Assembly: GCF_009914755.1 (NCBI RefSeq)
Contig: NC_060926.1
Reading direction: 5' to 3' (one strand)
Length of the DNA stretch: 64,000 bases
DNA from: the human T2T-CHM13v2.0 reference genome, Homo sapiens
The notes under the pieces were generated by a model. It made no database searches. It was not told where the DNA came from and saw only the letters and a program-made list of their open reading frames with translations. Of this stretch, positions 24,311-27,441 are shown in pieces. The stretch's first letter is position 1. Every line of letters begins with the position of its first letter. A program made the translations under genes and the position numbers.

Positions 24311-24627
24311 CTAGATAACAAAGCACAGGGAAAGGACACGCTATACTCAGACCTAGATACTGTAATCCTGGGATATGCCTGTTTTGTGTTTTGCTTTTGT
24401 TTTTTTGTTTTGTTTTGTTTTGCTTTTTTCTTTTTTTCTGTTTGTTTGGTTTTTGTTTTTAGACCTATGACGGAACCCATTTTCATGTCTGTTTGAGGTT
24501 TATTCTTAGATTCTATTCAACTAGCCCTAAGAGATCTAAACTAGTTAGAGAGTTAACTGATTATTGAACTAGTGTCAGCATCATCCCTACTGCAACTCAA
24601 AAGTTATTGAGCAGACACAAAAATGGT

Positions 24628-24675
24628 GTTAGTAAAATGCTTCCTAGGTTAGTTTTGCTGGTGTACATATTAGTA
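24628..24675 (-). promoter_or_regulatory. Cluster of three ACUAAY motifs downstream of the SS2 exon
   Basis: Plus-strand GTTAGTA at 24628, GTTAGT at 24648 and ATTAGTA at 24669. Confidence 0.55.
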
Positions 24676-24786
24676 AGGTTTAGTTGTCTGTTATTAACTA
24701 ATCACAACGTGCACCTTGTTAACATAAAAGGCGCAAGCTATTTCCAGCAACATCACTATTTGCACTATTGAGCAGCAATTGTTCAG

Positions 24787-25019
24787 CATGCAAGTGCCTA
24801 AGTCCATGCCAAAGGGAGAGAAAAGGCAAAACAACCAGTAGAAGCGGCACACGCTGATGTGCACATGCAGGAGGTACAGTACAGTTCAGAAAAGGAAAGA
24901 AAGAAAACAGGGAGAACCAAAGGAAAAACATAAAAATAAAAACAACTGCTTTGTGATGACGTAAAGATGAGTGGGTGTGGCATCTCCAGCATTCCCAAAT
25001 CAAGTTTCCATGCCATGCA
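24787..25019 (-). promoter_or_regulatory. RBFOX-type (U)GCAUG cluster downstream of the SS2 exon
   Basis: Plus-strand CATGCA at 24787, 24864 and 25014; CATGC at 24805 and 25009. Confidence 0.55.
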
Positions 25020-25332
25020 TCATGAATGGTTAGAGACTGGCTGAGCCTGCGGTCACTCGGGCCAGCCACCATTTTGTCTTATCCCGTGTTAACCACAGCT
25101 GGATGCAAAACGTTCGAAACGTTAACGATGCCCCTACAGGTGAGTTGGAAAACAGAAGTTGACAGGAACAGGTAAAAAATAAGAAGGTCAACAACAGATG
25201 AAAAGAAGGAGGTCAAAGTAAGCAGAAGAGTACCAACCGCAGTTCCTCTTTTGTTAATGATGTCTACAGTTAAAAGAAAGAAAGAAAACACACGGCAAAC
25301 CCAAAATAAGAAACAATTAGAATGATATCTAC

Positions 25333-25377
25333 CGAACAATGTAGTTTGTTTACCATAGCGTGTCCAATGCCTGAGTG
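25333..25377 (-). CDS. NRXN1: NRXN1 alternative splice site 2 (SS2) microexon: HSGIGHAM (24 nt, 25354-25377) or HSGIGHAMVNKLHCS (45 nt)
   Basis: Acceptor ttctccacaaag|CAC, internal donor ATG|GTAAAC (25353) and distal donor TCG|GTAGAT (25332). This matches the known 8/15-aa SS2 inserts of neurexin-1-alpha. Too short for the ORF track. Confidence 0.96.
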
Positions 25378-25460
25378 CTTTGTGGAGAAGGGGGGAGAAA
25401 GGAAATTAAAAACTGTGAACAGAATAACGATCGTTACTTAAAAAATATGATGGTCTCTAC

Positions 25461-25546
25461 CATGTTAGTACATTTTTTGATTCAGGTAACGGTTAGTAGA
25501 ATGAAACATTCCATGAATGACATGTTAGTTATTAAGCATGTTAGTA
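25461..25546 (-). promoter_or_regulatory. Cluster of four ACUAAC (QKI/SF1, branch-point consensus) motifs upstream of the SS2 exon
   Basis: Plus-strand GTTAGT at 25464, 25492, 25524 and 25540; three are full TACTAAC. Confidence 0.65.
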
Positions 25547-27441
25547 ACATAGAAAAAGGGCAAAAAAATTTTACAAGAAAAAAGCAGACTAACAAGTAGG
25601 CCTCCCACAGAGGTAATATTTTTCCTGCTATTATTGTTCATAATTTGCTACTAGACAGAAACAGACACATGACAATGTTCCCTTTGTCTTCCTGAGTACA
25701 TCTGAGAGACATTGGAAAAGTCTAAAAGGGATTCAAAGGCCTAAAGCGTTTCAGCTGACCACTGCAGCCCTATGCCCATACTTGACCCCTCCTCCACCCT
25801 GGCCCACCCCAGCCCCAGGAAATTAGTAGGAATCAGTTGGCATTGCCCTACTACTCAATTTTACAGCATACAAGGACTCCTCCTCAACTTCAAAACTTCC
25901 TTCGGTCATATTGATGGACTTTAGGGTCACAGTTTACTGCAATGAAACAAAGCAAAGATCCTGACACATAGAATGAGTAGAATGGATTTGTGTTTAATCT
26001 GTCCTGCTACACATGCACCCCGGCTGTATAACTACAGTTTCCTTTGAGCTACCAATTCGCAGTTTGGTTTGTAACCTGAGCAAAGGCAAATCTAGAAAGT
26101 GGACTCCTTGAGCCCCCACCCTTCCTTCTGTGCTTCTCTCAAATGAGCCTCTGGTTTCTTTGTGCATATCTGAGAGAAAAAATTAAAAAAGGAAAACCAA
26201 AGAGACAGACTTATAGGAAATCCATGGTCTACAGTTATACTGATGGTGGCCAATCCTCTCCAAAGGCAGGTGGAAGCATGCAGGGCCCCTCCCATGTCAA
26301 TGAGGGATCTGGAAGGTCTGGGGTTCTCAAGAATCTTTCAGTTTTATTTGTTTGCCTTAGCTAGACTAAATCTACACTCCTAAAGCTCCTTTTTGTTTCT
26401 CTAGCTCAGACAGTATAAACCTTTCAGAACAGGAAAGAAAAGGTTAGACAGTTAACAGCTCTGAAAGAGAGGGCTGTTTTGGTAAAGGAAAACCAGAGAC
26501 AATCCGGTCATTCTGCAACTGTTCAGAGAAACAACAAATATGTTAAGGATATTAGTTTAAGATCAGCATGTACGGCAATAAAATTAGTCACTGTCAACAC
26601 TTAACAAAATGATACACTGTAATATAAAGTTTCACATAATACCCAAAACTTATAATGTTCAATATAAAAGGACAATCTATTCATTTTCATTCGTATATAT
26701 ACTGTAATCACGTCTTCATTAAAAACATACAGTATATGTAGACCCACAGATTTAGTAAATAGTTGATATTTTCCTAGTATATAGCATCTTGAAAAAGTTT
26801 TTTTAAAAAAATACAATTAAATAGAAATGGGCACCTAGAAGATTAACTGGCCTTTCCAGAGTCATTTGGGGTTTAACTTAAAGCATCTATGCTAAAAATA
26901 AAAGTATCTTCAAAAACAGACCCTTCAGGAGATATGTAAGCCCCTAAAGAAATTTTTCCCCTCAGGGACTTCTCTTGTCCCCATTTTGGGGTTGGGAGGA
27001 GGAGGGAGTAGGGACTGATACAATCCCAAATCACAAACACTATTTTTTCGACTACAAAAAAGGAACTGTGACTTAATGACCCCAATGTGCATGCTTCCAA
27101 ATGATCACCATGAAAACTACAATTTAAAATTAAACAAACAAAAAAACCAAAAACACAACAAAATCACACACATCACAGGAAGGGCAGGTCGCAGGGATAT
27201 CCTTGCAGCCCTTTTGGAAATTTTCATATGGCCCTGTATCAAAATAGCCTTTGGGCTCCCAGAACTTTCTAGATATGCCCCTGCTCAAGTATGGCAGGAA
27301 GATTCATCTCAGAAGAAGAAAAAGCTAATTTGCAAGTGACTCTGAGGAGCCCTGTATCATGTTGTTAGAGTATTTAAGTACCACACACACAGCTATAGCG
27401 AGAAACAAAGCCAGTTACTCTCTTATCCACTGCGCTGTTAC

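What the first reader, a model, noticed from the sequence alone, without database searches (positions are those of the whole stretch)
24311..25550. The SS2 region as an integrated splicing-control module
Seen: about 1.2 kb free of recognisable transposons and locally retaining CpGs. It contains the long-range duplex, seven ACUAAY motifs in two flanking clusters, five (U)GCAUG motifs, and four additional polypyrimidine+AG modules, all in the transcribed orientation. Inference: the duplex loops out a cassette of cryptic micro/poison exons, and QKI (glia/progenitor) versus RBFOX/SRRM4 (neuron) binding could set whether the loop is closed. This would couple SS2 choice with NRXN1-alpha dosage via NMD.
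Basis: inference. Interest (0 to 1): 0.72.

Follow-up and report, generated by a model that had tools for sequence, protein, structure and literature searches.

The report
NRXN1 SS2 microexon splicing-control region
This stretch is the control region around a tiny alternative exon of the synapse gene NRXN1: its main element, a cluster of binding sites for the protein QKI, is already published, while an RNA helix that could hide the exon is a new but unproven lead.

Summary
On the transcribed (-) strand, 24311-25550 carries 7 ACUAAY (0.58 expected), 5 GCAUG (1.18 expected), the highest CpG retention of the window, and four extra pyrimidine-tract+AG modules.

The duplex is real. A 25-26 bp imperfect helix pairs the whole 24-nt SS2 microexon, with both its splice sites, to positions -8..-37 before the next exon.

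The core is already known. The four ACUAAC upstream of the exon match a published Qki5 CLIP cluster that represses this exon in mouse and human cells (PMC11406248).

New here: all three neurexin paralogues have their densest ACUAAY cluster of 60-64 kb just upstream of SS2. NRXN1 and NRXN3 also share about 143 nt of upstream intron.

The helix is each arm's best partner in 64 kb and dominates the predicted ensemble. However, NRXN2 and NRXN3 lack it, helices of this strength are not rare, and orthologues could not be examined.

No QKI or RBFOX motif overlaps a helix arm, so "binding closes the loop" has no support. The poison-exon/NMD idea is also unsupported: the intron is poor in usable splice sites, none is annotated, and no literature search found one.

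Verdict: a mostly known splicing module with one untested structural lead.

The parts
25354..25377 (-). SS2A microexon, 24 nt, encodes HSGIGHAM, phase 0
   Evidence: Hub annotation. Translation. It is the exon amplified by the primers of PMC11406248.
25333..25353 (-). SS2B extension, 21 nt (VNKLHCS), used through the alternative donor UCG|GUAGAU
   Evidence: Hub annotation (exons of other transcripts 25333-25377)..
25464..25546 (-). Upstream cluster of four (U)ACUAAC, three of them UACUAAC: the QKI-type intronic silencer
   Evidence: It is the densest 300-nt ACUAAY window of the 64 kb. Two sites are in register with NRXN3. A published Qki5 CLIP cluster lies upstream of this exon.
25287..25520 (-). 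Block conserved between NRXN1 and NRXN3: 143 nt of upstream intron, the exon, and 46 nt of downstream intron. The part downstream of the long donor is also conserved in NRXN2.
   Evidence: 81% over 234 nt to C14, and 85% over about 99 nt to C11; 44 of 50 identical in the first 50 intronic nt after the long donor. Outside the blocks identity falls to 28% (36 of 130 columns upstream) and 36% (36 of 100 downstream).
25378..25415 (-). Pyrimidine tract and 3' splice site of SS2. The likely branch site UUCAC lies just upstream, near 25397.
   Evidence: The branch-site assignment is my reading against the recalled yUnAy consensus.
25352..25383 (-). Helix arm 1: the last 6 intronic nt (including the AG), the whole SS2A exon, and the first 2 nt of its donor
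24318..24347 (-). Helix arm 2: positions -8 to -37 before the next exon (its pyrimidine tract and probable branch region). It keeps a CpG at 24339.
   Evidence: pair probabilities 0.56-1.0; the helix is in the MFE structure. for the CpG.
24787..25019 (-). Five GCAUG (three UGCAUG) at +335 to +563 of the downstream intron: candidate RBFOX enhancer
   Evidence: It is the densest GCAUG window of the 64 kb.
24628..24674 (-). Downstream cluster ACUAAU-N15-ACUAAC-N14-UACUAAC: two overlapping bipartite QKI-type sites, inside the loop
24806..25299 (-). Five pyrimidine tracts (25266-25299, 25193-25230, 25161-25188, 24881-24945, 24806-24838): candidate PTBP-type sites rather than acceptors
   Evidence: 6 tracts in the interval against about 1.3 expected. 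(no matching donors). The PTBP reading is inference.
25052..25139 (+). First exon of the antisense lncRNA LOC101927089. It lies in the CpG-richest block (7 CpG in 25050-25126) and ends at a CAG|GUGAGU donor on the + strand.
   Evidence: Hub annotation, (reverse complement read by eye).
24380..24460 (.). Simple repeat, (TGTTT)n on the + strand and (AAACA)n in the transcript
24149..24310 (-). Next constitutive exon, 162 nt. The 54 aa match fully in NRXN3 by tblastn.
   Evidence: Hub annotation and (HMMER identity 98% for NRXN3 and 93% for NRXN2).

Best explanation
The interval is the cis-regulatory neighbourhood of the NRXN1 SS2 cassette, a 24-nt microexon with a 21-nt donor extension.

Shown elsewhere: four ACUAAC sites 92-168 nt upstream of the exon form a QKI-type silencer. 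QKI binds there and represses the exon in QKI-expressing cells.

Inferred from position:
- QKI probably acts by blocking SF1/U2 assembly near the branch site.
- The UGCAUG cluster at +335..+563 is a neuronal RBFOX enhancer.
- The pyrimidine tracts are PTBP-type sites.
- The second ACUAAY cluster at +680..+721 gives a QKI dimer a second anchor on the other side of the exon.

Inferred from thermodynamics: once the polymerase has moved about 1 kb further, a 25-26 bp helix can zip the naked microexon, with its AG and its donor, onto the pyrimidine tract of the next exon. This would act as a general brake. It favours skipping unless exon definition has already taken place. It competes with core factors (U1, U2AF), not with the tissue-specific proteins.

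There is no poison-exon or NMD arm.
For: QKI core:
- ACUAAY is enriched 12-fold on the transcribed strand only, and bipartite sites are present.
- PMC11406248 (passages and SI legend read) reports a Qki5 HITS-CLIP cluster with ACUAAC upstream of and on Nrxn1 'SS2A exon 7'. It also reports Qki5-dependent exclusion in mouse NSC-34 cells and human iPSC motor neurons.
- The paper's primers sit at 27494-27514 and 24267-24288. That gives 73+44 = 117 nt, or 141 nt with the exon.
- PMC6429586 lists Nrxn1 among Qki-regulated splicing targets (one table passage).

Paralogues:
- In NRXN1, NRXN3 and NRXN2, the densest 300-nt ACUAAY window of 60-64 kb is the one upstream of SS2, with 4 motifs each, starting at -168, -150 and -629.
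- NRXN1 and NRXN3 share the flanks.

GCAUG: the densest window of the 64 kb lies at +359. The densest UGCAUG window in NRXN3 also lies in its SS2 downstream intron, at +931.

Helix:
- The exon's best partner among 12,791 windows of the 64 kb scores -35.8, against -29.2 for the next locus.
- The reverse test gives -37.5 against -31.7 among 12,793 windows.
- Pair probabilities are 0.56-1.0, and the helix is in the MFE of an 1171-nt fold.

Cell-type control of SS2 is real: it is skipped only in Vip and Lamp5 neurons in mouse (PMC8975553, passage).
Against: Helix:
- Neither paralogue has a comparable arm. At their next 3' splice sites the scores are -13.2 and -16.2.
- Their best intronic partners are -27.6 in NRXN3 and -33.4 in NRXN2. 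Both fall inside their own 60-kb backgrounds, which reach -30.5 and -34.5.
- In a seeded scan of the window the SS2 pair ranks 34th of 1,696 loci. About 10 distinct elements with no arm in the listed repeats are as strong. A helix of this class somewhere in 1.24 kb is therefore expected roughly once in five or six tries. Only its placement is unusual.
- A closed helix would also hide the pyrimidine tract that the skipping reaction itself needs.
- NRXN1 is absent from the supplements of the conserved-pairing catalogue that could be read as text.

Downstream sites and motifs:
- The published CLIP text mentions clusters upstream of and on the exon, not downstream.
- No GCAUG lies within the first 300 nt after the exon.
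- No paper seen ties RBFOX to NRXN1 SS2. Searches showed only ranked lists.

CpG: a third of the CpGs sit in the first exon of an antisense lncRNA, so CpG retention there may reflect a promoter rather than RNA elements (hub table).
Confidence: 0.5

Rival explanations
1. The protein-binding part is real, but the helix is a neutral coincidence. The exon arm is fixed by coding constraint. A pyrimidine-tract region happens to complement it in the NRXN1 lineage, and in vivo the proteins on nascent RNA never let it form.
For: No counterpart in NRXN2 or NRXN3. About 10 non-repeat helices of equal or greater strength exist in 64 kb. Masking the next exon's pyrimidine tract looks harmful. NRXN1 is absent from the searched supplements of the PCCR catalogue.
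Against: The arms are reciprocal best partners in 64 kb, with a gap of about 6 kcal/mol to the next locus. The arms coincide to the nucleotide with the microexon plus both splice sites and with the adjacent 3' splice-site region. A CpG is retained in both arms.
Confidence: 0.35
2. Structure-bridged bypass. The closed helix buries the SS2 AG and donor. It puts the next exon's AG 7 nt beyond the helix. Through the helix that AG lies roughly 45-55 nt from the proposed branch site near 25397 and about 90 nt from the nearest UACUAAC at 25464. A spliceosome assembled upstream of SS2 could then join directly to the next exon, skipping SS2 without using that exon's own masked tract.
For: Geometry: the helix runs 25383-25352 / 24318-24347, and the AG is at 24312-24311. 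The SS2 pyrimidine tract (25384-25415) stays unpaired in the MFE. Precedent exists for introns that rely on structure in place of U2AF2 (PMC4691745, listing and start of abstract only). This reading removes the objection that the helix blocks the tract needed for skipping.
Against: Purely geometric; no lariat or branch-point data. Not seen in the paralogues, which skip SS2 as well (NRXN2 exon 7 skipping, bioRxiv 10.1101/2025.10.02.680092, passage).
Confidence: 0.1
3. The duplex loops out cryptic micro or poison exons, and QKI versus RBFOX/SRRM4 binding opens or closes it. This would couple SS2 choice to NRXN1-alpha dosage through NMD.
For: Four pyrimidine-tract+AG modules exist. Any exon spliced in from them would carry a stop or a frameshift.
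Against: Only 2 acceptor-like and 7 weak donor-like sites lie in about 1 kb, below the window rates. The best candidate, 25263-25238, has a donor scoring 2.8. The real donors score 2.5 (the alternative SS2B donor), 5.1, 6.9 and 7.8. No extra exon appears in the RefSeq table of 25 transcripts. No NRXN1 entry is in the cryptic poison-exon supplement or in the listing. No regulator motif overlaps a helix arm. There is no UGC before the exon.
Confidence: 0.04
4. The CpG-retaining core (about 25040-25240) is mainly a DNA element, a small promoter or enhancer driving the antisense lncRNA LOC101927089. It would not be part of the RNA-level splicing code.
For: Annotated + strand first exons start at 25052, 25110 and 25111. 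There are 7 CpG in 25050-25126. Strong + strand donors lie at 25139/25140 (CAG|GUGAGU) and 25217/25218 (read).
Against: The lncRNA models are predicted ones (XR_). The block shows no paralogue conservation. It explains only a third of the CpGs; the others lie in the paralogue-conserved flanks and in the helix arms. It is compatible with the main explanation.
Confidence: 0.3
5. The exon-intron helix is an ADAR editing substrate, with the exon paired to an intronic editing-complementary sequence.
For: An exon paired with a downstream intronic arm about 1 kb away is the classic layout (recalled: GRIA2, HTR2C).
Against: No NRXN1, NRXN2 or NRXN3 entry appears in the supplements of the human recoding catalogue that could be searched (files 4 and 5 were not searched). 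The helix is short and interrupted.
Confidence: 0.02

Closest known systems
QKI (STAR-family) intronic splicing silencers; specifically the Qki5 target 'Nrxn1 SS2A exon 7' (PMC11406248)
   Same: ACUAAC cluster upstream of the cassette exon, bipartite core plus half-site, and repression when bound upstream. It is the same exon, as shown by primer mapping.
   Different: The paper (parts read) does not mention three things seen here: the second cluster at +680..+721, the recurrence of the cluster in NRXN2 and NRXN3, and the helix.
Long-range pre-mRNA pairings that mask splice signals (PCCR catalogue PMC8052449; ATE1 PMC7797038; concealed branch sites PMC11162794; listings and abstract starts only)
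   Same: Two complementary boxes about 1 kb apart in one intron. One covers a regulated exon's splice sites, and the other covers a 3' splice-site or branch region.
   Different: One arm is a complete coding microexon. Conservation and covariation, which define the catalogued cases, are untested in orthologues and absent in the paralogues.
RBFOX downstream intronic enhancers
   Same: (U)GCAUG cluster in the intron downstream of a neuron-regulated exon.
   Different: The first motif lies at +335, outside the usual proximal 300 nt (recalled RNA map). No CLIP or knock-out evidence was seen for this exon.
SLM2/Sam68 control of neurexin SS4 (PMC3636136, PMC5397175; listings only)
   Same: A STAR-family protein reading a dense cluster of short A/U-rich sites next to a neurexin alternative exon, with the arrangement kept in all three paralogues.
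   Different: A different site (SS2, not SS4), a different motif (ACUAAY, not U(A/U)AA repeats) and a different protein (QKI).

Membership tests
QKI response element / STAR-type intronic silencer | ACUAAY core with a UAAY half-site within about 20 nt, on the transcribed strand | tested here: met
   7 cores, 3 of them bipartite, all on the - strand. The motif definition is recalled.
QKI response element / STAR-type intronic silencer | QKI bound in vivo, and QKI-dependent change of the exon | not testable with these tools
   Reported in PMC11406248 for mouse Nrxn1 and human NRXN1. Exon identity was checked by primer mapping.
QKI response element / STAR-type intronic silencer | Evolutionary retention of the sites | tested here: met
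   The densest ACUAAY window of 60-64 kb lies upstream of SS2 in all three paralogues. Two sites are in register between NRXN1 and NRXN3. Orthologues were not available.
RBFOX downstream enhancer | (U)GCAUG in the downstream intron, enriched over background | tested here: met
   5 GCAUG against 1.18 expected; the densest window of the 64 kb.
RBFOX downstream enhancer | RBFOX binding, and RBFOX-dependent inclusion | not testable with these tools
   No paper seen links RBFOX to NRXN1 SS2. There is only a correlative NRXN2 exon-7 change in cells with altered RBFOX/NOVA.
Functional long-range RNA structure (PCCR type) | Stable complementarity between two distant boxes | tested here: met
   -35.8 kcal/mol; reciprocal best partners in 64 kb; pair probabilities 0.56-1.0.
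Functional long-range RNA structure (PCCR type) | Conservation or compensatory substitutions | tested here: not met
   Tested in the paralogues only: no outlier arm in NRXN2 or NRXN3. Orthologues are not testable here.
Functional long-range RNA structure (PCCR type) | Effect of disrupting and of compensatory mutations, or in-cell pairing evidence | not testable with these tools
   None available.
Poison exon / AS-NMD cassette | Exon with a usable acceptor and donor, seen in transcripts | tested here: not met
   (crude recalled PWM). The RefSeq table shows none. Searches found none.
SRRM4-dependent microexon | Length of 27 nt or less | tested here: met
   24 nt.
SRRM4-dependent microexon | UGC-containing enhancer just upstream of the 3' splice site | tested here: not met
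   No TGC in 25378-25440 on the - strand. The feature itself is recalled.
ADAR site with editing-complementary sequence | Catalogued edited adenosine in the exon | tested here: inconclusive
   No NRXN entries in the searchable supplements of PMC8897444. Two files were not searched.

The most novel reading that the evidence does not exclude
NRXN1 carries an RNA-structure-encoded exon bypass. The helix swallows the whole SS2 microexon and hands the spliceosome, already assembled on the SS2 branch site and pyrimidine tract, the AG of the next exon 7 nt beyond the helix. SS2 skipping would then be decided by a race between exon definition and helix closure about 1 kb of transcription later. QKI, RBFOX and polymerase speed would set the odds.
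Probability: 0.1. Interest if true: 0.7.

Novelty: new member of a known kind. Interest (0 to 1): 0.4.

Why it matters
SS2 decides whether alpha-neurexin binds neurexophilin and dystroglycan (Wilson 2019 is cited in the passage; the dystroglycan link is recalled). It is also cell-type specific.

The QKI input is known. Seeing the same ACUAAY architecture in all three paralogues suggests that the control predates the neurexin gene duplications.

If the helix works, it would be a rare case in which an entire coding microexon is one arm of a long-range structure. It would also give a concrete target for antisense oligonucleotides to shift SS2 in NRXN1.

Tried and rejected
- Rfam scan of 23800-26000: one chance-level hit (E 0.41, below the gathering score), so no known RNA family.
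- Paralogue test of the helix: negative.
- Seeded scans around the paralogues' SS2: NRXN3 has a -37.6 helix between -252 and +1730, and NRXN2 has very strong inverted repeats. Neither stands out from background, and I did not pursue them.
- Supplements searched for NRXN1/2/3 with no hits: conserved pairings, cryptic poison exons, human recoding sites (two files unread).
- Papers not held: PMC3305983, PMC6541232, PMC3977267. What they say about RBFOX and about SS2 isoforms is therefore unknown to me.
- Nova paper PMC10287156: its Nrxn1 events are exons 4 and 10, not SS2.
- Earlier findings of this scan were not open.
- Splice-site scoring used a PWM recalled from textbook frequencies. The real sites score only 2.5-7.8 with it, so it is coarse.
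- blastn between the paralogue introns found nothing beyond the exon-flank blocks.
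Full report
**Where we are.** The window is human NRXN1, transcribed from the - strand. The interval 24311-25550 holds four things:
- the last ~170 nt of the intron before SS2;
- the 24-nt SS2A microexon (25377..25354, HSGIGHAM);
- its 21-nt extension to the alternative donor at 25333 (VNKLHCS);
- the whole 1,043-nt intron up to the next exon (24310..24149).

Sources: hub table, sequence, translations. Both flanking introns are phase 0.

- ACUAAY occurs 7 times on the transcribed strand and once on the other strand.
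  - Four are ACUAAC starting at 25545, 25529, 25497 and 25469.
  - Three lie at 24674, 24653 and 24633.
  - The window rate predicts 0.58 (Poisson 2.7e-6).
  - The window as a whole is poor in the motif: 56 found against 89.6 +/- 8.6 in shuffles.
  - Three of the 9 bipartite ACUAAY-N1-20-UAAY sites of the window lie here.
- GCAUG occurs 5 times on the transcribed strand, between 25018 and 24787, against 1.18 expected (P 0.007). There is no window-wide excess.
- CpG o/e is 0.46 against 0.18 for the window. No other of the 628 sliding windows reaches it.
- Pyrimidine tracts are enriched (6 against about 1.3). Tracts followed by AG within 20 nt are not (3 against 1.08).

**The duplex.**

- The repeat finder gives one non-trivial inverted repeat, 24326-24344 / 25355-25373 (I6). 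The other long pairs are A-rich against U-rich low-complexity sequence.
- RNAduplex extends I6 to 25 bp at -35.8 kcal/mol. With longer flanks the score is -38.2.
- In the MFE of an 1171-nt fold the helix has 26 bp, with pair probabilities of 0.56-1.0.
- Arm 1 is 25383-25352. It covers the last 6 intronic nt with the AG, all 24 exon nt, and the first 2 nt of the donor (only the second of these pairs).
- Arm 2 is 24347-24318, which is -37 to -8 before the next exon.
- The loop is therefore simply the whole downstream intron, and the paired object is the microexon itself.

**Is the duplex more than chance?** There are two answers.

- *Placement.* The exon's best partner among 12,791 windows of the 64 kb is this arm, and the next locus scores -29.2. 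The arm's best partner among 12,793 windows is the exon (-37.5 against -31.7).
- *Strength.* A seeded scan of the transcribed strand finds 1,696 candidate pairs 100-1,500 nt apart.
  - The SS2 pair scores -31.8 there, because windows centred on the seed cut it short.
  - That makes it 34th.
  - About 10 distinct elements without an arm in the listed repeats are as strong.
  - A helix of this class somewhere in 1.24 kb is therefore unremarkable. That its arms are exactly a microexon and the adjacent 3' splice-site region is what is remarkable.

**Paralogues as an evolutionary test.** The window's own genome could be searched.

- NRXN3 (C14) matches 25520-25287 at 81% over 234 nt. The match covers 143 nt of upstream intron, the exon and 46 nt of downstream intron. 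This is about the same identity as the next coding exon (83%).
- NRXN2 (C11) matches 25380-25282 at 85%.
- In a three-way alignment, the first 50 intronic nt after the long donor are 44 of 50 identical between NRXN1 and NRXN3.
- Outside the blocks, identity falls to 28% (36 of 130 columns upstream) and 36% (36 of 100 downstream).
- Two ACUAAC (25497, 25469) are in register with NRXN3. NRXN3 has four ACUAAY at -150 to -99, and NRXN2 has four at -629 to -376.
- In each of the three genes, the densest 300-nt ACUAAY window of 60-64 kb of transcribed strand is the one upstream of SS2.
- GCAUG is less consistent.
  - NRXN1 has its densest window at +359.
  - NRXN3 has its densest UGCAUG window at +931.
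  - NRXN2 has 4 in the first kb (P 0.02).
- The helix fails this test.
  - The next-exon 3' regions of NRXN3 and NRXN2 score -13.2 and -16.2.
  - Their best intronic partners are -27.6 in NRXN3 and -33.4 in NRXN2.
  - Both lie inside their own backgrounds, which reach -30.5 and -34.5.

**What is already in print.**

- PMC11406248 (PNAS 2024; passages and SI legend read):
  - It reports a large Qki5 HITS-CLIP cluster containing ACUAAC upstream of, and on, Nrxn1 'SS2A exon 7'.
  - It reports inhibition of the exon by Qki5.
  - RT-PCR confirmed this in mouse NSC-34 cells and human iPSC motor neurons.
  - Its primers map to 27514..27494 (-) and 24267-24288 (+).
  - From these positions I compute 73+44 = 117 nt without and 141 nt with the 24-nt exon. 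These are the product sizes the paper states.
- PMC6429586 lists Nrxn1 among Qki-regulated targets (table passage).
- PMC8975553 reports SS2 skipped only in Vip and Lamp5 neurons (passage).
- A preprint reports NRXN2's 24-nt exon 7 skipped in patient neurons with altered RBFOX/NOVA expression (10.1101/2025.10.02.680092; abstract and passages). This is correlative only.
- I found no paper on a helix at SS2, on RBFOX at NRXN1 SS2, or on a poison exon here. Only ranked lists of up to 25 papers were seen.

**Cryptic exons and NMD.**

- I scored splice sites with a coarse PWM recalled from textbook frequencies. On that scale the real acceptors score 3.1 and 4.8, and the real donors 2.5, 5.1, 6.9 and 7.8.
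- The intron holds 2 acceptors scoring 3 or more (window rate 3.84 per kb) and 7 donors scoring 2 or more (12.7 per kb). The best donor scores 3.7.
- The best candidate exon, 25263-25238 (26 nt), has a 2.8 donor.
- Any inclusion would frameshift or bring a stop. However, nothing suggests that inclusion happens.

**Mechanism.**

- No ACUAAY or GCAUG overlaps a helix arm.
- The upstream QKI cluster lies 81 nt outside the helix. The other motifs lie inside the loop, hundreds of nt from either arm.
- The helix competes with U1/U2AF at the microexon and with U2AF at the next exon's tract, not with QKI or RBFOX.
- I therefore read the region as parallel inputs:
  - a QKI silencer (shown by others);
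  - a probable RBFOX enhancer and PTBP-type tracts (inferred);
  - a structural brake that closes about 1 kb of transcription after the exon emerges (inferred).
- The objection that the closed helix hides the tract needed for skipping is met by only one variant. In it, the spliceosome assembled on the SS2 branch site and tract uses the next exon's AG, which lies 7 nt past the helix. I give that variant a 10% chance.

**Verdict.** The core of the finding is already known. The recurrence of the ACUAAY architecture in all three paralogues and the exon-swallowing helix are new details. The first is solid, and the second is untested.

Noticed in passing
window 27229-27317 and 26040-26150 (- strand): A much stronger long-range helix (-74.6 kcal/mol over ~90-110 nt arms, core about 30 bp) lies in the intron upstream of SS2. 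It starts 125 nt after the upstream exon's donor and ends about 660 nt before SS2. Neither arm is in the listed repeats, and arm 1 has no other copy in the genome at E<=0.001.
   Followed up: partly
window 25040-25240, + strand: The antisense lncRNA LOC101927089 starts in the CpG-richest block. That block contains the nested palindromes CGTTAACG, TTCGAA and AACGTT. Two good + strand donors lie at 25139/25140 (CAG|GTGAGT) and 25217/25218 (AAA|GTAAGC).
   Followed up: partly
window 25283-25332 (- strand): The 50 intronic nt after the long SS2 donor are conserved in all three neurexin paralogues. They include UCUAAUUG, a GGG run and GCCGUGUGUU, and a CpG is retained in all three. No factor was assigned.
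   Followed up: partly
window 25504-25520 (- strand): Three UCAU (NOVA-type YCAY) lie within 17 nt just upstream of ACUAAC 25497. They are kept in NRXN3. YCAY is frequent (16 per kb), so this is not statistically tested.
   Followed up: no
L002/L003 (NRXN3, C14), -252 and +1730 relative to its SS2 exon: A -37.6 kcal/mol pairing brackets the NRXN3 SS2 exon and ends 167 nt before the next exon. It is not homologous to the NRXN1 helix, and it is one of five pairs of -35 or stronger in that 7-kb scan.
   Followed up: no
L019-L024 (NRXN2, C11), about -3.9 kb, -2.4 kb and +2.6 kb from its SS2 exon: Very strong inverted repeats (to -81 kcal/mol) flank the NRXN2 SS2 exon. They are probably transposon copies in opposite orientation, but their identity was not checked. 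The NRXN2 intron after SS2 is 8.4 kb, against 1.0 kb in NRXN1 and 1.9 kb in NRXN3.
   Followed up: no
window 49147-50638 (- strand): Another strong inverted pair (-73 kcal/mol) lies about 1.3 kb apart in deep intron. It is not in the list of longest masked repeats.
   Followed up: no
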